57,414 nucleotides of DNA from an uncultured Clostridia bacterium (GCA_947624865.1 CANQMH010000001.1:1-57414), one strand, 5' to 3'; shown: positions 10,879-28,298, counted from the first letter of the stretch. Translations and numbers: made by a program. Notes: generated by a model from the letters alone, not told the origin.

Positions 10879-13002
10879 GTGACTCTTTTGGATAAATATA
10901 TAGGCAAAAGACTTGACGGTCGTTATGAAATTCACGAGCTTATCGGTGTTGGCGGTATGGCAAGTGTTTATCGCTGTACCGACACAATTGATGACCGAGA
11001 GGTTGCAATAAAAATATTAAAGGATGAATATCTTAATAACGAGGAGTTTATCCGCAGATTTAAAAATGAATCAAAAGCTATTGCAATGCTTTCGCACCCT
11101 AATATTGTAAAGGTTTATGATGTAAGCTTTGGTGATATGATTCAGTACATTGTAATTGAATATATTGACGGCATTACGCTTAAAGAGTATATTGACCAGC
11201 AGGGTATTATTGAATGGAAAGACGCGCTTCATCTTACAACTCAGGTACTCAAAGCACTTCAGCACGCTCATGAATGCGGCATTGTTCACCGAGACATAAA
11301 ACCGCAGAATATAATGCTGCTTCAGGACGGTACAATAAAAGTTACCGATTTTGGTATTGCAAGATTTTCTGACAAGTCAACTCGCACAATGACTGATCAG
11401 GCAATCGGTTCTGTACATTATATTGCCCCCGAACAGGCAAGAGGAGATACAACAGACGGAAAAACAGACATTTACTCCGTGGGAGTAATGCTTTATGAAA
11501 TGCTTACAGGCAAGCTTCCGTTTGACGGTGACAGTGCGGTGTCTGTTGCACTTATGCAGCTTCAGTCAACTCCTAAGCGTCTTAGAGAAATCAATCCCGG
11601 AATACCGATAGGTCTTGAACAAATTACAATGAAGGCAATGCAGAAGACACCGTCGGAACGCTATACTTCTGCGGCAGAAATGCTAAGTGATATTGAACGT
11701 TTTCGTCTTAATCCGTCAATTGTGTTTGATTACGGTTCATCATTTGTCGATAATCAGCCTACAAAATTTGTTGGTTCTCTCAAGGATGCAAAAAAATCGG
11801 AAACAAAGCAGTTAATTAAAAATGAAACATCTTCCGATAATGAGGAAAATAACGATGATGACAGCGATAATTATATAAAAGAGCACAAGCCGTCATATTA
11901 TGCCGTTAAGGGTATTTTGATTGCGGCGGTGGCAGTATGTGCATTGTTCTTTTTGCTTGCAATATTCAGAGGCTGCAATTCAGCGCAGGCAAAGGATGTT
12001 CAGGTTCCTGACTTTATAGGAAAGACTCTTGTTGAAGCAAAAGAGAATAACCCCAATAATTTTGTTTTTGAGATAAAAAGCAAATACGACGAATCAAAAG
12101 AAATGGGAGTTATCCTTAATCAGGATCCCGCTCCCGATTCAATGAAAGTAAAAACAGGCTCAACAATTACTCTCACTGTAAACGGCACCGATACAGAGGT
12201 TTCTGTTCCGTTTGTAACAAATTACAGCGAAAAGGAAGCTATGCAGGCATTAAGAGATAAAAATCTTATGCCGGAAGTGGTTTATGTTGAAAACACAAAA
12301 ACACCCAAGGGATACACAATAGAAACTTTCCCTAAAGCCGGCGTTAAGTCAACAATTGGCTCAACCGTCTATATTTATATTGCCAACGGCGCAAGAACCG
12401 AGCAGGTTACTTTACCGTCGGTAACAGGTCTTATGTTATCAGAGGCTAAAACTCAGCTTGAATCACTTGAACTTACGGTAGAAGTGCAGTATGACGATGA
12501 AAGCAAAGAACCTAAGGACACCGTTTTGGGAATGTCACCACTCCAGTACGGAAAGATTGACAAAGGAACTGTTGTAACGCTTAGTGTAAGTTCGGGCGAG
12601 GGAGATAAGAATACAGTAAATGTATTTGTTGATTTGCCGTCAAATACAAAAAATTCGGTAGAAATGACAGTAATTGTTGACGGTGTTGTCGACACAAAGT
12701 ATTCAAAAACACTTGTCCCGATGTATAATAAAACCTGTACGCTGGAATTTACGGGTTCAGGTACTTCAACGGTTGTTGTACAGCTTGACGGTCAGGTTTA
12801 CCGTGAATATACCATTGACTTTTCAACATCAACCGTTAATACAACAAAAACATATGAATATGTTGTTCCAACAACAGCCCCGACGCAAGAGCCTGAACCA
12901 GAACCAACATATCAGACGGATCCTGAACCTGAACCAACATATCAGACTGATCCCGAACCGCCCACAGACGGAGAGATAACAAACGGAATTGAAGAAAGAT
13001 GA
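10879..13002 (+). CDS. pknB: PASTA-domain Ser/Thr kinase (Stk1/PknB/PrkC)
   Basis: GVGGMASVY, VAIK, HRDIKPQN, DFG, APE; TM helix; three PASTA-like repeats; start may be GTG 10879 or TTG 10888. Confidence 0.95.
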   Translation: MTLLDKYIGKRLDGRYEIHELIGVGGMASVYRCTDTIDDREVAIKILKDEYLNNEEFIRRFKNESKAIAMLSHPNIVKVYDVSFGDMIQYIVIEYIDGITLKEYIDQQGIIEWKDALHLTTQVLKALQHAHECGIVHRDIKPQNIMLLQDGTIKVTDFGIARFSDKSTRTMTDQAIGSVHYIAPEQARGDTTDGKTDIYSVGVMLYEMLTGKLPFDGDSAVSVALMQLQSTPKRLREINPGIPIGLEQITMKAMQKTPSERYTSAAEMLSDIERFRLNPSIVFDYGSSFVDNQPTKFVGSLKDAKKSETKQLIKNETSSDNEENNDDDSDNYIKEHKPSYYAVKGILIAAVAVCALFFLLAIFRGCNSAQAKDVQVPDFIGKTLVEAKENNPNNFVFEIKSKYDESKEMGVILNQDPAPDSMKVKTGSTITLTVNGTDTEVSVPFVTNYSEKEAMQALRDKNLMPEVVYVENTKTPKGYTIETFPKAGVKSTIGSTVYIYIANGARTEQVTLPSVTGLMLSEAKTQLESLELTVEVQYDDESKEPKDTVLGMSPLQYGKIDKGTVVTLSVSSGEGDKNTVNVFVDLPSNTKNSVEMTVIVDGVVDTKYSKTLVPMYNKTCTLEFTGSGTSTVVVQLDGQVYREYTIDFSTSTVNTTKTYEYVVPTTAPTQEPEPEPTYQTDPEPEPTYQTDPEPPTDGEITNGIEER
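12892..12960 (+). repeat. 30-bp tandem repeat (about 2.3 copies) encoding PEPEPTYQTD in the PknB tail
   Basis: cctgaaccagaaccaacatatcagacggat / cctgaacctgaaccaacatatcagactgat / cccgaaccg. Confidence 0.9.
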
Positions 13003-19963: not shown

Positions 19964-20458
19964 ATGTTTATTTCATCAGATTTGCAAATATTTCAATGGC
20001 TAATCAAAGCTAAACCAAGCGCGTATGCCGCTATTAAGGGTTCGGAGGATTATCCGCAAATTAACGGAATGATAAAGTTTTATCAGACAAATATGGGAGT
20101 GTATGTTGTAACGTCTGTTGTAGGACTGCCTGATGATAATTCGATTTGCGGAAGCAGGATTTTTGCAATTCATATTCACAATGGAACAGGATGTTCTGGA
20201 GATGAAACAGACCCGTTTAAAGATGCAGGAACTCATTTCAATCCTAACGATTGTCCTCATCCGTATCATGCAGGCGATATGCCGCCTCTGTTTTCAGCCA
20301 ATCACATAGCGTGGAACGCATTTCTGACAGATAATTTTACAGTAGATGATGTTACAGATTTGCCGATTATAATTCACTCCGGGGTTGATGATTTTACGAC
20401 CCAGCCTTCGGGAAATTCAGGAAGCAAAATTGCCTGCGGAATAATAAGAAAAATCTGA
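19964..20458 (+). CDS. sodC: Cu/Zn superoxide dismutase family protein (no signal peptide)
   Basis: HIH, GTHFNP, HPYHAGD, IIIH, GNSG.KIACG ligand motifs. Confidence 0.85.
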   Translation: MFISSDLQIFQWLIKAKPSAYAAIKGSEDYPQINGMIKFYQTNMGVYVVTSVVGLPDDNSICGSRIFAIHIHNGTGCSGDETDPFKDAGTHFNPNDCPHPYHAGDMPPLFSANHIAWNAFLTDNFTVDDVTDLPIIIHSGVDDFTTQPSGNSGSKIACGIIRKI

Positions 20459-21529: not shown

Positions 21530-24500
21530 ATGAAACATTTTTTAAAATTTGTCTCAGTATTGTTGGTCGTTATGACAATTACAGGCGCCTGTCAAGCCGG
21601 ACTGTCTGCGTTTGCAGCCACCGTGAAGTCTGACGCTGCTGCGGCATCTTATGACGCAGAAACAGCAGTTTCGGGAGCGTCAACATTGGTAAACGGCACT
21701 TGCGGAGAGAATCTTAATTGGGAGCTTGACCTGACCACCGGTGTGCTCACAATCAGCGGAACAGGTACAATGTATGCGTATTACTCTACTCCTTGGTATG
21801 ATCACAGAAGTTACATAAAAACCGCAACAATTAAAGATGGTGTAACTTCAATCTGCTGGAATGCTTTTTCTGATTGCACAAGCCTTGCGAGTGTAAAACT
21901 CTCTAATTCATTAACTTTAATCGGCGATCAAGCTTTTGAAGAATGCACAAGCCTTACAAGTATAGAAATCCCCGGCTCAGTAACTGAAATCGGCGAAAGA
22001 GCTTTTTATAATTGCACAAGCCTTGCGGGTGTAAAACTCTCTAATTCATTAACTTCAATTGACGATTGGGCTTTTGCTTCGTGCGAAAGCCTTACAAGTA
22101 TAGAAATCCCCGACTCAGTAACTTCAATCGGCGATTATGCTTTTGCTTGGTGCGAAAGCCTTGAGAGTGTAAAACTCTCTAATTCATTAACTTCAATCGG
22201 TACTATTGCTTTTTATGAATGTACAAGCCTTGCAAGTATAGAAATCCCTAACTCGGTAACTTCAATCGGCAATGAGGCTTTTCTGGCTTGCACAAGCCTT
22301 GAGAGTGTAAAACTCTCTAATTCATTAACTTCAATCGGCAATAGAGCTTTTTCCGGTACAAGCCTTGCAAGTATAGAAATCCCCGACTCGGTAACTTCAA
22401 TCGGCTGGAATGCTTTTTATTACTGTACAAGCCTTGCGAGTGTGAAACTCTCTAATTCATTAACTTCAATCGGCGATCAAGCTTTTGAAGAATGCACAAG
22501 CCTTGCAAGTATAGAAATCCCCGGCTCAGTAACTGAAATCGGCGAAAGAGCTTTTTATAATTGCACAAGCCTTGCGAATGTAAAACTCTCTAATTCATTA
22601 ACTTCAATCGGCTATTATGCTTTTTATGGCTGCACAAGCCTTGAGAGTGTAAAACTCTCTAATTCATTAACTTCAATTGACGATTGGGCTTTTGCTTCGT
22701 GCGAAAGCCTTACAAGTATAGAAATCCCCGGCTCAGTAACTGAAATCGGCAATAGTGCTTTTAGTAATTGTACAAATCTTGCGAGTATAGAAATCCCCGA
22801 CTCTGTAACTGAAATCAGCGGGAGTGCTTTTTATAACTGTGGTCAACTTGTTATTTACGGATATATTCCTTCATATGCATATACTTACGCTATGGAACAC
22901 AATTTTCCATTTATTCTTTTGTTTACAAAATATTCCGGAAAAATAGAAGTAAATGTTGATTATGACGGTTCAGACCGTCTTCTTGTAAAAATCTCTAATG
23001 AAGATAACGAGTCTCTCTTAAGAGCCGTTAAAGACGGAAACGCAGTATTCTCCGGCATAAATTCGGAGAGAACATATACTGTTGAGCTTCTTACAAAAAG
23101 CGGCAGACTTATAGACAAAAAGAGTAATGTAAAGCTTGCCGCTGATACTGCGTCTGTCAGCTTTAATAACGTTAATCTTTACGACTACACAGCTTCGGTA
23201 GTAGATGAAAACGGCGATAAAGTTAATGATTATACAATAGAGTGGTTTGTAAATTCATCATCAGACCCGGAGTCAAAATCCGACACTGTAACAGACCTTA
23301 AAGCAGGAGACAATGTAAAATGTGCGGTTACAATCGGTGACGAGCTTAAAAAGATTTATGAAGTTCCCGAAGCAGTCACCACCACAGTACAGGCTTCTGA
23401 CAAAAAGATTGTAATTAAGCTTAAAAAAGCAGAAACAAAGAATACAAAAATTATTGTTAAAGACATTAACGGCAATCCGTTGCCAAAGGCTGATGTCAGC
23501 ATAATTCAAAAGGTAAATCAAAAGCTTAATACTGCTGTCACCTACACCGCAGACGAAAACGGTGAAATTACAGTATCACTCAGAACGCTTGAAACAGGAA
23601 TTAAGGTTTTCAAAGAATCATATTTCAGTGCTTCCTGGTCCGGAGTTCCTGACGGCAAAGACATTACCATTGTGCTTGAATCCGCTGTTGGTGCGTCGTT
23701 TGTTCCAGTTATAAAAAGTAATTACATAAATGGTATTACGCACAGCAATGTAACAACCGATTCACTCACGTTCAGTATAAAAAACCTGACAAACGGAAAA
23801 TATATTGAAAACTTTTCCTATGAAAACGGAACAATAAAAATTCCTAATGAGTATATTTCAAAAAATGACAAGCTTTTGTTTACAGCAGTTGATTCAAACG
23901 GAGTTTTTTGTGACACAAGCGCGACGGTAACATATACAGGCAGTTCTGTCCAATTTGATTTAACTTTTACCGAAAAAGGCATTATCAAATTTTCGTTTAA
24001 TTCTTCTAACGAAAAGAATATGGCGTTGATATTCAATGCCAACGGAGATTACGTTTCAGCTGTTGATTTAAATAATTCTTCATTAAGCTCAAATCTTGAC
24101 GCAGGAAATTATAAGGCTGTAATTATGGGTTACTGCAAATCTCTGTACATAGTAAGCTCATACAGCGACCTTCTGTCTTTCGGCTTGAAAAAGAATTCTG
24201 ATTTTATTGAAAAAGATGTATCTGTTGCAGATGCTGAAATTACGGAAATTTCAAATGTAACGATACCTAAATTCAGCGAAGAAAATCTGTTCTTTATTGA
24301 TACAGACAAATCATACATTTCAATTTCACCCTCAAATTCCGTTCCGGGTAATTATCTGATTGTTTCTGTCAAATATTCGGTACTTGATAGATACAAAAAA
24401 ACTGCAGTTCCCGATTGCGTAACCATTACCCTGCCGGAAGGAATTAAAATGGCCTCAGATTCTTCTTTAATAGTAGATAATGTTTATAACTCAGACTATA

Positions 24501-27500
24501 CATATGAAAATAACGTTATTACAGTTCCGGTAGCAAATAATGAAACGGTTATAATGTTTTCAGTTTCAACTGAAGCATATTCCGGACAAAATGACATTAG
24601 TGCAAATATCACATTTTTAAAGAATAATAAACAAATTGTTCAGCCCATAGGTACTGCGCTCTTTAAATTTGATGAAAATTTCATTGTTCCTGATCTTGTA
24701 GGCGATGCTGATTTCCCTGTTTCGGGTAAGGTAAGTCCACTGTCAGATGTTGAAGTTTATGCGGACGATATTTTAGTTGGTTCAACCAAATCAAACAACT
24801 TTGGATCATTTTCATACAATGTACATCTTGAAAACACGTATAACCACACACACCACAGCATTTATTTCGTAATAAAAAACGGCAGCGGAGTCTTCTATAA
24901 GTCGAAAACCTACGCGGTTGAATACGACATTAATTCTGTTTCTGTATTAAGCCTTTATATGAGTCCCAACGGTATGTACGGCGGTTCTGTTAAGTTATAC
25001 AGCAGCGACGGCAATTACTCTTCTCAGTATTACTACTATCCCGGAAAGTATGACGACCTTACATATACCGTTGAGTTTTCGGGAAATGTTGACGTGCTGA
25101 ATAATGTAAGGATTATTTCAACTGCTTCAAATGGTCAGGAAATAATTATTCCGCTTGATCGTGTTGGCAGTACAAAGACATTTGCCGGAACATATCATTA
25201 CTCTTCAAGTACAATACCCGTTTCGCTGAGTGTGGGCTATGATTATTTTGGTGAAGTATTCTTTGACTCGGACAATGCAAGAGCAAATGAAGAAAAAAAC
25301 AAATCGGCAGTTGCAGACTGTGAAAATGCCGCACAGGAGCTTGAAGATTATTTAAAAACAGCCTCTAAAGAGGAATTAAATGAAATTGCTGACTGTGTTA
25401 ATCAGGTAATAAACAATTCTGAATATAAATATTTAATGGAGGAAGTCAACAAAAATTACACCTTGCTTGAACAAACTGACAATTCAGTATCAATTAAGGA
25501 TAATAAAAACAATGTCATTTATTGCTCAAAAGACTGGACAGATACTTCAAAAAATGCAAATGACCTGTTAGCTGAGGGTTATACCAAGGTTGATACATAT
25601 AACGAAAATGACCGGATTTATTCGCTTGTCACTGACTCATGCAGTATTATTGCAGACTTATCAGATGGGTCTTTCTCATCACAGGAAGTTATACCTGTTG
25701 AACAAACTATAAATTTACCGAATTTAATTAACAACTTTAACAAATCAAATGTATTAGGTTCAGCCGGCAATAAAATAGAGTCACGTGCTTCGTTAAATCA
25801 AAATGTTGTTGATTTCTTAAAAAATACGTATAACGTTATAGGAAAATATGCAGATTTATTATTATCTTTAACTGAAGAATTACATAATTTTGGTCCTGTA
25901 GGTAAGGCAGCGTGTAAATTATTTGGCGGCATATTAAATGCATTTTCATTAAACAGCTTGTATGATCAATTGAGTTATTATATAGATGCTTGCTCTAAGC
26001 TGGATAATTTAAAGTACTCCTACGAATCTTTATTGGAGCTATCAAATAAATGTAACTTTAGTGCCCAAGATATGATAACTTTATCAGACTTGGGTAACAC
26101 AATAAACGATATACAAAACAATATTAATCTATATCTTTCTGCGTTAGAAGCAACTGCTGTTTCAACTTTAGTTGGTTTGACGTCATTTGTATATTCTTTA
26201 GTGGATATCGAAATTTTCTCAAAAGTAGCAAGCATAACCTTAAGTGTATTAAGTTTTCTTACAAGTGTAGGTCTTGATATGGCTTTTGAGAATTTAACAA
26301 ATTATATTGATAATGATTATAATTTGGGATATCAAATACTCTCATATTTTAAAAGAGAATTAGCAAAATCCGGTTGTGTTACTGATATATATGACAATTT
26401 AATAGACCAATCGAAACTAAAATTACCCAATATTAATGTGAACGGTATTATGGATCCGTCAGGTTATGTATGCGAGGCTGTTTCAAGCAACAGGCTTGAA
26501 GGTGTTACCGCAACAATTTATTACAGTCCTAACGCCGACGGAAGCGACGCCGTTATCTGGAATGCAGAAGATTATAATCAGAAAAATCCTCTTTTAACAA
26601 ACTCTATGGGACAATATGAATGGTATGTGCCTGAGGGTTATTGGCAGGTTAAGTACGAAAAAGACGGATATCAAACACAGTACAGCGACTGGCTGCCTGT
26701 TCCTCCGCCTCAAATGGATATAAACGTTGCAATGGTTTCATTGGATGCTCCGACGGTTAAAAACGTTATGGTTTATCCCGATTCAATTGATATTACATTC
26801 AGTCAGTATATGAACCGACATTCTGTTACCTCGCAAAACGTAAAAGTTACTCAGAACGGCAAAACAATCAGCGGTACAATTACTCCGCTTGACAAGGAAG
26901 CTTCTTTTAATGACGCTGATACCTTCTATGCTTCAAAATTCAGATTTGTACCTTCTGACGGAGCTGCTCTGAGCGGTACAATTAATGTAAGCATTGCCGA
27001 CGCTGTAAACTATGCCGGCAGCCAAATGGATGATACATTCACAAATAATTACACCGTACAGCACCGCGTAACATCCATTGAGGCAGACAATACGGTTACT
27101 GTAAATTACGGACAGCCTGTAACTCTTAATATCAAGCTCCTTCCGGGTGAGGCAGCCGCTAACAAAACCGTAAACATCAGTACCGACAACAGTACATTAA
27201 TTTCCGTTGATAAAACAAGTGTTGTAACCGATGAAAACGGTATGGCACAAGTAACCGTAAGCGTGTTGCTTCCGGGCGCAGCAAATATTACTTATCAGGT
27301 CGACGGAACAGACGTTACTGCAACTACAAAGATAATCTGCACAAATATTGTCGAGTCTGAAGAAAAGGAGCAGCTTGAAAAAGTACAGGCGTCTGTAGCA
27401 AGTGGTTCAGTCGTTGAAGCAGGAACACAAATAACGCTGACCTGTTCAAACCCTGACGCTCAAATTTATTATACGCTCGACTCTTCCTGTCCGTGCCAGT

Positions 27501-27835
27501 TGGATAATCCGGCACGAACATTATACACAGGACCTATTACTGTTAATGAGGACACGGTAATTGTAGCGTATGCAGTATTGGACGGATATGAGGACAGCAA
27601 TACAAACCTCTTTATATATACGGTGAAAAAACCTATACTGCTTGACGTTAACTGTGACGGAGTCGTCAGTGTACTTGATGCAACTGAAATTCAGAAGTAT
27701 CTTGTAAGTATGGTAAAATTTAATGAAATACAAAAGTCTGTTGCTGATGCCAACGGAGATGGAGTAATCAGCGTATTGGATGCTACTGAAATACAAAAAT
27801 ATCTCGTAGGTCTTTCATCTATTTTAAGCAATTAA
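21530..27835 (+). CDS. 2101-aa secreted BspA/TpLRR (LRR_5) protein with Ig-like stalk, internal helical module, CHB_HEX_C-like domain and C-terminal dockerin
   Basis: Signal peptide (..GLSAFA); GTCG..L.W....G.LTISGTG cap; 15 LRR units (IgxxAFxxC.SL..I.IP); beta-rich stalk; IYYTLD..P...YTGPI; duplicated D.N.DG..S.LDATEIQKYL; RBS aggagga. Confidence 0.9.
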   Translation: MKHFLKFVSVLLVVMTITGACQAGLSAFAATVKSDAAAASYDAETAVSGASTLVNGTCGENLNWELDLTTGVLTISGTGTMYAYYSTPWYDHRSYIKTATIKDGVTSICWNAFSDCTSLASVKLSNSLTLIGDQAFEECTSLTSIEIPGSVTEIGERAFYNCTSLAGVKLSNSLTSIDDWAFASCESLTSIEIPDSVTSIGDYAFAWCESLESVKLSNSLTSIGTIAFYECTSLASIEIPNSVTSIGNEAFLACTSLESVKLSNSLTSIGNRAFSGTSLASIEIPDSVTSIGWNAFYYCTSLASVKLSNSLTSIGDQAFEECTSLASIEIPGSVTEIGERAFYNCTSLANVKLSNSLTSIGYYAFYGCTSLESVKLSNSLTSIDDWAFASCESLTSIEIPGSVTEIGNSAFSNCTNLASIEIPDSVTEISGSAFYNCGQLVIYGYIPSYAYTYAMEHNFPFILLFTKYSGKIEVNVDYDGSDRLLVKISNEDNESLLRAVKDGNAVFSGINSERTYTVELLTKSGRLIDKKSNVKLAADTASVSFNNVNLYDYTASVVDENGDKVNDYTIEWFVNSSSDPESKSDTVTDLKAGDNVKCAVTIGDELKKIYEVPEAVTTTVQASDKKIVIKLKKAETKNTKIIVKDINGNPLPKADVSIIQKVNQKLNTAVTYTADENGEITVSLRTLETGIKVFKESYFSASWSGVPDGKDITIVLESAVGASFVPVIKSNYINGITHSNVTTDSLTFSIKNLTNGKYIENFSYENGTIKIPNEYISKNDKLLFTAVDSNGVFCDTSATVTYTGSSVQFDLTFTEKGIIKFSFNSSNEKNMALIFNANGDYVSAVDLNNSSLSSNLDAGNYKAVIMGYCKSLYIVSSYSDLLSFGLKKNSDFIEKDVSVADAEITEISNVTIPKFSEENLFFIDTDKSYISISPSNSVPGNYLIVSVKYSVLDRYKKTAVPDCVTITLPEGIKMASDSSLIVDNVYNSDYTYENNVITVPVANNETVIMFSVSTEAYSGQNDISANITFLKNNKQIVQPIGTALFKFDENFIVPDLVGDADFPVSGKVSPLSDVEVYADDILVGSTKSNNFGSFSYNVHLENTYNHTHHSIYFVIKNGSGVFYKSKTYAVEYDINSVSVLSLYMSPNGMYGGSVKLYSSDGNYSSQYYYYPGKYDDLTYTVEFSGNVDVLNNVRIISTASNGQEIIIPLDRVGSTKTFAGTYHYSSSTIPVSLSVGYDYFGEVFFDSDNARANEEKNKSAVADCENAAQELEDYLKTASKEELNEIADCVNQVINNSEYKYLMEEVNKNYTLLEQTDNSVSIKDNKNNVIYCSKDWTDTSKNANDLLAEGYTKVDTYNENDRIYSLVTDSCSIIADLSDGSFSSQEVIPVEQTINLPNLINNFNKSNVLGSAGNKIESRASLNQNVVDFLKNTYNVIGKYADLLLSLTEELHNFGPVGKAACKLFGGILNAFSLNSLYDQLSYYIDACSKLDNLKYSYESLLELSNKCNFSAQDMITLSDLGNTINDIQNNINLYLSALEATAVSTLVGLTSFVYSLVDIEIFSKVASITLSVLSFLTSVGLDMAFENLTNYIDNDYNLGYQILSYFKRELAKSGCVTDIYDNLIDQSKLKLPNINVNGIMDPSGYVCEAVSSNRLEGVTATIYYSPNADGSDAVIWNAEDYNQKNPLLTNSMGQYEWYVPEGYWQVKYEKDGYQTQYSDWLPVPPPQMDINVAMVSLDAPTVKNVMVYPDSIDITFSQYMNRHSVTSQNVKVTQNGKTISGTITPLDKEASFNDADTFYASKFRFVPSDGAALSGTINVSIADAVNYAGSQMDDTFTNNYTVQHRVTSIEADNTVTVNYGQPVTLNIKLLPGEAAANKTVNISTDNSTLISVDKTSVVTDENGMAQVTVSVLLPGAANITYQVDGTDVTATTKIICTNIVESEEKEQLEKVQASVASGSVVEAGTQITLTCSNPDAQIYYTLDSSCPCQLDNPARTLYTGPITVNEDTVIVAYAVLDGYEDSNTNLFIYTVKKPILLDVNCDGVVSVLDATEIQKYLVSMVKFNEIQKSVADANGDGVISVLDATEIQKYLVGLSSILSN
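21842..22849 (+). repeat. Tandem array of 15 LRR-coding units (69 bp; unit 8 is 66 bp)
   Basis: Unit starts 21842, 21911, 21980, 22049, 22118, 22187, 22256, 22325, 22391, 22460, 22529, 22598, 22667, 22736, 22805; two frameworks (SVKLSNS / SIEIPxS) that mostly alternate. Confidence 0.95.
27644..27806 (+). other. Dockerin domain (duplicated Ca-binding loop-helix)
   Basis: DVNCDGVVSVLDATEIQKYL ... DANGDGVISVLDATEIQKYL. Confidence 0.9.
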
Positions 27836-28213: not shown

Positions 28214-28298
28214 TGGTGCGAGTGACGGGACTTGAACCCGTACGTCGTAAAACACACGCCCCTCAAACGTGCCTGTCTGCCTATTCCAGCACACTCGC
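28214..28298 (-). tRNA. tRNA-Leu(GAG)
   Basis: Reverse complement GCGAGTG...CACTCGCACCA, anticodon loop TT-GAG-GG, long variable arm, TTCAAGT T-loop, 85 nt. Confidence 0.95.

What the first reader, a model, noticed from the sequence alone, without database searches (positions are those of the whole stretch)
21842..22849. LRR array with a near-frozen DNA framework and four hypervariable, aromatic-rich codons per unit: candidate bacterial variable-receptor system
Seen: all 15 units use the identical codons GCT-TTT for Ala-Phe, and the frameworks (acttcaatcggc, aagcctt, aaactctctaattca, gtatagaaatccc) are near-identical even at synonymous sites. The two codons on each side of GCT-TTT change almost completely: WN/SD, DQ/EE, ER/YN, DW/AS, DY/AW, TI/YE, NE/LA, NR/SG, WN/YY, DQ/EE, ER/YN, YY/YG, DW/AS, NS/SN, GS/YN. 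These positions are rich in Tyr, Trp, Asn and Asp, like a paratope. The xIxI beta-strand positions, which vary in classical LRR receptors such as lamprey VLRs, are nearly constant here (K or E according to framework type), so the variable stripe would lie on another face. Inference: homogenised framework plus focal hypervariability points to concerted evolution with strong diversifying selection or an active cassette-shuffling mechanism.
Basis: partly seen in the sequence, partly recalled or inferred. Interest (0 to 1): 0.8.

Follow-up and report, generated by a model that had tools for sequence, protein, structure and literature searches.

The report
Fast-shuffling LRR tip on surface protein
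A gut bacterium related to Ruminococcus bromii has a giant surface-type protein whose 15 leucine-rich repeats share almost the same DNA except at four codons each, and those codons and the repeat number differ sharply between close relatives, likely because ordinary recombination plus selection keeps remodelling a predicted binding face, a known strategy rather than a new diversification machine.

Summary
Fifteen BspA/TpLRR-type (Pfam LRR_5) units sit near the N-terminus of a 2101-aa dockerin-bearing protein in a Ruminococcus bromii relative. Ala-Phe is GCT TTT in 15 of 15 units, and codons 7, 8, 11 and 12 are hypervariable.

A sister genome's allele is 97.5% identical downstream of the array but has 11 units and shares 0 of 11 variable tetrads. 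A third allele, seen as contig pieces, puts 27 of 32 listed array differences in those four codons. Units recombine (PHI-like test, 0 of 5000 permutations).

No donor cassettes or reverse transcriptase were found in either the window's genome (both tests) or the sister genome (donors only). The Ala-Phe codons are array-specific, not a universal motif.

The pattern is common: 35 of 91 related arrays are homogenised and vary at the same positions. It matches the published Flavobacterium psychrophilum LRR locus and works like fungal HET-E repeats. This scan noted the same pattern before on other DNA.

Verdict: concerted evolution plus diversifying selection on a probable binding face, an extreme new member of a known kind. 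Ligand unknown. A local mutational or patch-swap contribution is not excluded.

The parts
21530..27835 (+). 2101-aa secreted-type surface protein carrying the array: LRR_5, Big_1, CHB_HEX_C_1/Fn3_assoc, C-terminal Dockerin_1
21530..21616 (+). probable signal peptide (basic start, hydrophobic core, AFA end); judged by eye, no predictor run
   Evidence: sequence; inference
21686..21838 (+). N-terminal cap of the solenoid; its loop (about 21767-21829, aa 80-100) also differs between alleles
   Evidence: model; allele B; three non-synonymous base changes in run X3
21839..22870 (+). array of 15 BspA/TpLRR units of 69 bp (one of 66 bp; the last merges into the cap); two frameworks; hypervariable codons 7, 8, 11, 12 around GCT TTT
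25784..26371 (+). predicted long-helix bundle (aa about 1419-1614) with a moderately hydrophobic stretch; sequence-divergent among family members; fold unassigned
26453..26764 (+). conserved 'DPSG...PVPPPQ' beta domain shared by a large family of giant surface proteins (end approximate)
27146..27604 (+). Big_1 and CHB_HEX_C_1/Fn3_assoc stalk domains
27644..27805 (+). Dockerin type I, probable anchor to cohesin scaffoldins
   Evidence: two cohesin matches over cut-off in the genome

Best explanation
The array is a BspA/TpLRR-type solenoid at the N-terminal end of a dockerin-bearing protein that is likely tethered to the cell surface; its units are likely copied, deleted and swapped by ordinary recombination between 69-bp repeats, while diversifying selection likely drives change at four predicted-exposed codons per unit that would form a binding stripe. 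Steps: (1) Shown: LRR_5 family and fold, dockerin, homogenised frameworks, mosaic units, and different unit number and tetrads between alleles. (2) Inferred: unequal crossing-over, slippage and gene conversion within the array, plus exchange of alleles between strains, do the homogenising and reshuffling; no dedicated enzyme is needed. (3) Inferred: amino-acid change at positions 7, 8, 11, 12 and the N-cap loop is favoured. (4) Inferred, untested: these residues stack into one face that binds a variable partner in the gut (another microbe's surface or a host glycoprotein), with display through cohesin-dockerin binding as in R. bromii.
For: Family and fold: PF13306 E 3.7e-148; AF2 model pLDDT 87.9 matches 4fs7 at Z 38.2, rmsd 2.8 A over 365 residues. 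Allele B (P0002, L021, genome G137): 11 units against 15; 71 of 2835 nt and 49 of 1665 aa differ downstream; 0 of 11 tetrads shared; p-distance 0.56 at variable codons against 0.12 in the framework. Run X3 gives a third allele with 27 of 32 listed array differences in the four codons. Controls: weakly homogenised arrays keep most tetrads between alleles (L031/L032 21 of 24 at 98% DNA identity; L056/L059 13 of 16; L065/L066 19 of 20), against 0 of 10 here by the same parser. Recombination among units: 117 of 276 framework site pairs incompatible, 20% near against 53% far, 0 of 5000 permutations as extreme; block duplication of units 2-4 as 10, 11, 13. Selection: JC-corrected dN at variable codons is 7.7-13.4 times framework dS; 10 of 13 unit pairs with at most 2 of 57 framework differences differ at 4-9 of 12 variable bases; codons at each variable position form near single-step networks (43 steps joining 44 codons at four positions). 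Synonymous divergence at those positions, given the same amino acid, is no higher than in the framework across 35 arrays. Anchor: 2 cohesin matches over cut-off and 34 dockerin matches in the genome; a R. bromii LRR-protein dockerin binds cohesins (PMC4611034, passages).
Against: Inside the variable codons synonymous change is also raised: pS 0.44-0.45 by Nei-Gojobori, and 5.4 synonymous spanning-tree steps (range 3-7.5) in 21 internal units. A crude simulation fits this best with a nonsynonymous advantage of 1-3 and only marginally with 6-10, so selection on point mutations alone may not give the whole 8-13-fold excess. In this gene low-framework-distance pairs show 0 or 4-9 variable differences and no 1-3 (13 pairs), although intermediates exist across other arrays. 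Solvent exposure and surface continuity were not computed because no coordinates were returned. No ligand, expression or within-population data. Only two full alleles.
Confidence: 0.7

Rival explanations
1. Same recombination mechanism, but the driver is escape rather than binding: the tip is a phage receptor or antibody target and any change is favoured.
For: PMC10392669 (section 6 read) reports that F. psychrophilum LRR proteins may serve as phage receptors and that clones changed their LRR loci after phage challenge (citing Castillo 2015, which I could not open). The protein is predicted to be surface-exposed.
Against: Change is confined to four positions plus the cap loop; other outward-type positions (4, 14, 17, 18, 20, 23) vary far less. 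Tyr+Trp make up 26% of variable residues, more like a binding face than a random epitope.
Confidence: 0.2
2. A codon-focused process (very short patch conversion between units or strains, or local error-prone repair) rewrites the two 6-nt dyads; selection only filters the result.
For: Variable distance is nearly saturated even at 0-2 framework differences (mean 4.8 of 12 over 134 pairs in 35 arrays). Synonymous steps in variable codons are raised. Identical dyads pair with partners differing at up to 6 of 6 bases. The Ala third position between the dyads is among the least variable four-fold sites (0.09, range 0.03-0.31).
Against: No four-gamete cycle between left and right dyads in 0 of 35 arrays. 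No donor copies. No shared DNA motif: Ala-Phe is GCG TTT 13 of 13 in L033, GCA TTT 12 of 12 in L042, GCT TTC 23 of 23 in L076, GCG TTC 22 of 22 in L063. No recombinase family among the 11 other window genes scanned.
Confidence: 0.1
3. Diversity-generating retroelement or vlsE-like silent-cassette system.
For: Asn/Asp/Tyr codons (AAT, GAT, TAT) are hubs at the variable positions. The assembly has 116 contigs, so a donor could be unassembled.
Against: No RVT_1 match in a genome scored 99.84% complete. 40 of 104 variable codons end in A or G, which adenine mutagenesis of AAY codons cannot give (established DGR mechanism). Framework adenines at synonymous sites stay fixed (TCA in 20 of 24 units, ACA in 19 of 24). 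No template or cassette found.
Confidence: 0.03
4. Neutral tolerance: recent repeat expansion with relaxed constraint at exposed positions, no positive selection.
For: [quoted passage not shown]
Against: Relaxed constraint cannot exceed the synonymous rate, yet dN at these codons is 7.7-13.4 times framework dS, and 0 of 11 tetrads survive between alleles 2.5% apart.
Confidence: 0.05

Closest known systems
Flavobacterium psychrophilum tandem cell-surface LRR locus (Altae-Tran et al. 2020, PMC10392669; section 6 and passages read)
   Same: Secreted, surface-anchored LRR proteins of about 22-residue units with several hypervariable positions modelled on one face; strains differ in repeat number and sequence; recombination without mobile-element genes.
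   Different: There: up to 19 tandem genes with gene fragments between them and a type 9 anchor. Here: one gene, no fragments or paralogues sharing the framework, dockerin anchor, 1600 further residues. I did not see its sequence logo, so identity of the variable positions was not checked.
BspA / TpLRR class (Pfam PF13306 LRR_5; solved 4fs7, 4gt6, 4h09, 4cp6 PcpA, 6mlx)
   Same: 23-residue consensus and fold; positions 7, 8, 11, 12 are the most variable across 91 arrays.
   Different: This array is among the most homogenised (four-fold divergence 0.09, joint third to fourth lowest of 91) and turned over every tetrad between alleles; it uses an unusual second framework (VKLSNSL).
Podospora HET-D/HET-E WD40 repeats (Paoletti et al. 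2007, PMC1805685; abstract and section list read)
   Same: Concerted evolution of repeat units, variable repeat number, four codons per repeat under diversifying selection on the interaction surface.
   Different: Fungal, intracellular, WD40 fold, repeats exchanged among 10 loci; here bacterial, extracellular, single locus, selection not tested by a site model.
Dockerin-bearing LRR proteins of Ruminococcus bromii and R. flavefaciens (Ze et al. 2015, PMC4611034; passages read)
   Same: LRR plus dockerin; the R. bromii LRR-protein dockerin binds cohesins including the cell-wall scaffoldin Sca2.
   Different: No repeat hypervariability is mentioned in the passages seen; binding of this protein's dockerin is untested.
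Lamprey/hagfish variable lymphocyte receptors (recalled, not read)
   Same: LRR solenoid with a variable face and a variable cap loop.
   Different: VLRs are assembled somatically from flanking cassettes and vary on the beta-strand face; no cassettes or assembly enzyme were found here, and the model fits classical LRRs poorly (LGR4/LGR5, Toll and SHOC2 chains rmsd about 14-18 A).

Membership tests
BspA/TpLRR (LRR_5) | Profile match above Pfam cut-off | tested here: met
   486 bits against cut-off 27.7
BspA/TpLRR (LRR_5) | TpLRR-class solenoid fold | tested here: met
   4fs7 Z 38.2, rmsd 2.8 A, 365 aligned; 6mlx rmsd 2.9 A; predicted model
BspA/TpLRR (LRR_5) | Flipped curvature with the non-xIxI face concave | tested here: inconclusive
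   Recalled from Takkouche et al. 2023, not held (only its title seen).
F. psychrophilum-type recombining LRR locus | Hypervariable positions in a fixed scaffold with strain differences in repeat number and sequence | tested here: met
F. psychrophilum-type recombining LRR locus | Tandem multi-gene locus with LRR gene fragments | tested here: not met
   single gene; no framework copies elsewhere in G000
HET-E-like concerted evolution plus diversifying selection (mechanism) | Repeat homogenisation and recombination among units | tested here: met
   framework pS 0.11-0.13; PHI-like 0 of 5000
HET-E-like concerted evolution plus diversifying selection (mechanism) | omega > 1 at specific codons | tested here: inconclusive
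   dN(variable)/dS(framework) 7.7-13.4, but pN/pS within those codons only about 1.3-1.5; simulation fits 1-6; no site model run
Diversity-generating retroelement | Reverse transcriptase in the genome | tested here: not met
   0 RVT_1 matches; draft of 116 contigs
Diversity-generating retroelement | Template repeat and adenine-specific variation | tested here: not met
   no template; 40 of 104 variable codons end in A/G; framework adenines fixed
Silent-cassette gene conversion (vlsE/pilE/VLR type) | Donor cassettes sharing the framework | tested here: not met
   none in G000; in G137 only 71% over 89 nt and 82% over 38 nt besides the orthologue; both are drafts
Cohesin-dockerin surface display (amylosome type) | Dockerin on the protein and cohesins in the genome | tested here: met
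Cohesin-dockerin surface display (amylosome type) | Binding of this dockerin to a wall-anchored scaffoldin | not tested
   no complex prediction or assay run

The most novel reading that the evidence does not exclude
Homogenised BspA arrays, widespread in gut bacteria, form a population-level antibody-like repertoire in which the two 6-nt dyads beside Ala-Phe are rewritten by a dedicated short-patch process faster than point mutation allows. In this family the variable tip aims a surface-tethered, sequence-divergent helical cargo that may insert into membranes, making it a retargetable contact weapon or adhesin of Ruminococcus.
Probability: 0.12. Interest if true: 0.8.

Novelty: new member of a known kind. 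Interest (0 to 1): 0.4.

Why it matters
It is a clean, extreme bacterial case of concerted evolution with focal diversification: a complete turnover of variable tetrads between alleles 2.5% apart, in a gut commensal lineage rather than a pathogen. The survey suggests that about a third of the BspA arrays retrieved are in this fast-turnover state while others are stable, and that within-array synonymous homogeneity flags which surface proteins are in an arms race. That gives a testable handle on what BspA proteins of gut Firmicutes bind, and a natural four-position binder scaffold. It does not reveal a new diversification enzyme.

Tried and rejected
Donor cassettes: blastn at word size 7 of the array against G000 hit only the array itself. 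Framework motif probes gave 0 hits for three patterns and 3 and 7 scattered one-mismatch hits for two short ones; 0 of 15 18-nt cores occur elsewhere; 12-nt half-cores occur at about background frequency (45% of 300 random 12-mers). The other LRR_5 genes of G000 (22 matches on 8 contigs) do not share the DNA framework. DGR rejected. A universal GCT TTT recombination motif rejected. Left/right dyad reassortment not demonstrated: no four-gamete cycle in 35 arrays; distance correlation 0.02, p 0.3, which saturation also explains. The framework pattern had 0 matches in metagenome contigs and 1 in genome contigs; no blastn match in 50,697 phage records. Within-sample variation: in X3 a piece at depth 17.3 and a joint at depth 9.2 add up to about single-copy depth (24.6), a possible bubble, but the joint has a 24-letter side and contigs cannot settle it; not used as evidence. 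P0003 has the same array as P0002 and may not be independent. Runs X7-X12 have small or no shares and were not used for habitat; X7 pieces in the array were mostly under 90% alike. Middle helical region: no Foldseek match at E<=0.001; best VIA Z 11.2 to generic three-helix bundles, within the background for helical models; pTM 0.54; the Atlas gave no result; a pore-forming reading is neither supported nor excluded. Synteny probe with the neighbouring NUDIX gene found 0 of 30 other genus genomes at E<=1e-30, uninformative. Promoter scan: 5 sites against 5.0 expected. Papers not held: Takkouche 2023 and Castillo 2015. Six literature searches listed no paper on repeat hypervariability in Ruminococcus BspA arrays; only the listings were seen and subscription journals are mostly absent. 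Supplements of PMC10392669 were not opened and may show which positions vary there.

Full report
The feature. The repeat lies in ORF 21530-27835(+), 2101 aa. Pfam gives LRR_5 (486 bits), Big_1, CHB_HEX_C_1/Fn3_assoc and a C-terminal Dockerin_1. The window's ObgE falls in a 90% cluster with proteins named Ruminococcus bromii, so the organism is likely a R. bromii relative; the best-holding runs are on record as rabbit gut metagenome. The genome has 1.9 Mb in 116 contigs, scored 99.84% complete.

Observation. There are 15 units from 21839. Nucleotide p-distance among 14 units is 0.62 at codons 7, 8, 11, 12 and 0.12 at the other codons 1-16. Twelve tetrads are distinct; units 2/10, 3/11 and 4/13 are recent duplicates. 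Unit 8 lacks its Cys codon. The longest exact internal repeats are 84 and 71 nt, and run X1's contigs confirm four stretches with 0, 0, 0 and 3 differences. X1 may be the source sample and no piece spans the array.

Alleles. P0002 (locus L021, genome G137; the same array appears as L024 in same-genus genome G135) is the orthologue. Core DNA downstream is 95-96% identical. The gene after the array differs at 71 of 2835 nt and 49 of 1665 aa. Its array has 11 units on the same two frameworks, and 0 of 11 tetrads match any of the window's 15; the N-cap loop also differs. Run X3 holds a third allele (21 differences in 799 nt downstream). It has unit 1 as in the window, a changed cap loop, and pieces reading EY/EN, KR/EG, DY/QY, DW/AS, NS/KN and GS/YG; 27 of the 32 listed array differences fall in the four codons. 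Short pieces are laid at their best-fitting unit, so their order is unknown and framework differences are minimised by placement. X3 shares 12 of 18 listed downstream differences with allele B while matching the window at the 5' end, suggesting exchange between alleles (inference; the table was cut).

Control. Among ten allele pairs parsed the same way, tetrads retained were 21/24, 4/11, 13/16, 19/20, 5/9, 13/15, 15/23, 6/9 and 7/19, against 0/10 for this gene. The lower values include a pair at 93% identity and two homogenised pairs. This gene shows the most complete turnover.

Mechanism. Framework sites show recombination: 117 of 276 pairs incompatible, fewer among near sites, 0 of 5000 permutations as extreme. 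dN at the four codons is 7.7-13.4 times framework dS. Ten of 13 unit pairs with at most 2 of 57 framework differences differ at 4-9 of 12 variable bases; the other three are the duplicates. Against a pure selection reading, pS inside the variable codons is 0.44-0.45, and a crude simulation fits their 5.4 synonymous steps best at a nonsynonymous advantage of 1-3, marginally 6-10. This can come from older variable cores being moved between frameworks, from counting artefacts at saturated codons, or from local mutagenesis; I could not separate these. Dyad reassortment across the Ala-Phe spacer was not demonstrated (0 of 35 arrays with a four-gamete cycle).

No dedicated machinery. No second copy of the frameworks or of any 18-nt core in G000; none beyond the orthologue in G137; no RVT_1; 40 of 104 variable codons end in A or G and framework adenines are fixed, which excludes DGR mutagenesis. 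The Ala-Phe codons are fixed within arrays but differ between them, so GCT TTT is a product of homogenisation, not a recognition site. Both genomes are drafts.

Generality. 120 of 121 genus genomes match the array protein at E<=1e-20. From loci L001-L131, 91 distinct arrays with at least six exact 23-aa units were measured; shorter or irregular arrays were left out, some are alleles of one gene, both alleles of this gene are included, and retrieval by similarity favours consensus-like arrays. Thirty-five of 91 have four-fold synonymous divergence below 0.3; in them nucleotide divergence is 0.50, 0.52, 0.56 and 0.40 at positions 7, 8, 11, 12 and at most 0.27 elsewhere (positions 5, 9, 10, 13 were constrained by the parser). 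The window's array (0.09) is among the four most homogenised.

Structure. The AF2 model (pLDDT 87.9) shows three short strands per coil, at positions 4-5, 10-11 and 18-20. The variable residues flank the Ala-Phe strand, away from the xIxI strand, and repeat in register, so they would stack in rows (inference). It matches 4fs7 at Z 38.2 and rmsd 2.8 A; classical LRRs such as LGR4/5, Toll and SHOC2 fit at about 14-18 A. I recall that TpLRR-class proteins curve the opposite way, which would make this face concave and remove the apparent contrast with VLRs; the paper was not held. Exposure was not computed.

Function. The genome has 2 cohesin matches over cut-off and 34 dockerin matches, and a R. 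bromii LRR-protein dockerin binds cohesins (PMC4611034, passages), so surface display is likely. The carrier belongs to a large family (765 hits among 7983 candidates) sharing a DPSG domain preceded by a divergent helical region; 53 of 121 examined have a 19-residue hydropathy above 1.6 there. Its fold is unassigned. No ligand is known.

Comparison. The closest bacterial precedent is the F. psychrophilum LRR locus (PMC10392669, section 6 read): hypervariable positions on one face, strain differences, recombination without mobile genes; it differs in being a multi-gene locus with fragments. The mechanistic twin is Podospora HET-D/E (PMC1805685, abstract). Earlier notes of this scan describe the same pattern in another gut bacterium and in phage fibres; I did not test them, and my reading was recorded before seeing them.

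Verdict. Real, striking and allele-variable, but a new member of a known kind: concerted evolution with focal diversification of a BspA solenoid, with no dedicated cassette system found. Interest 0.4.

Noticed in passing
window 25784-26764 (aa about 1419-1745); P0004-P0122: A large family of giant surface proteins shares a conserved DPSG...PVPPPQ domain preceded by a sequence-divergent helical region, often with Gly/Ala-rich hydrophobic stretches and a Cys shortly before DPSG. Anchors vary (dockerin, SLH, CW_binding_2, T9SS C-terminal domain); one member carries RHS repeats (P0040). Possibly a polymorphic cargo; fold unassigned.
   Followed up: partly
window 21767-21829: The N-cap loop is rich in Tyr in the window allele, replaced in allele B, and has three non-synonymous base changes in X3: a fifth variable element.
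   Followed up: partly
window 28214-28298 (-): tRNA-Leu(GAG) just downstream of the gene; the sister genome's contig ends nearby. Possible integration boundary, untested.
   Followed up: no
G000:C43:1-9492: A 4.8-kb tandem duplication at 98% identity holding two LRR_5 + dockerin genes (921 and 922 aa open frames); real duplication or strain-mixture assembly.
   Followed up: no
L033 (G119:C15), L042 (G112:C84), L055, L076, L063: Other strongly homogenised BspA arrays (four-fold divergence 0.03-0.22), each with its own fixed Ala-Phe codon pair; good candidates for allele surveys.
   Followed up: partly
L070-L110 cluster (22 loci): One locus recurring in many gut contigs has two LRR ORFs: one keeps most tetrads between samples, the other varies in its first units only, suggesting polarised turnover.
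   Followed up: no
window 12892-12959: 30-bp tandem repeat encoding a Pro/Glu-rich linker near the end of a 707-aa ORF.
   Followed up: no
window 19964-20458: Cu/Zn superoxide dismutase-family gene near the LRR gene in a probable strict anaerobe.
   Followed up: no
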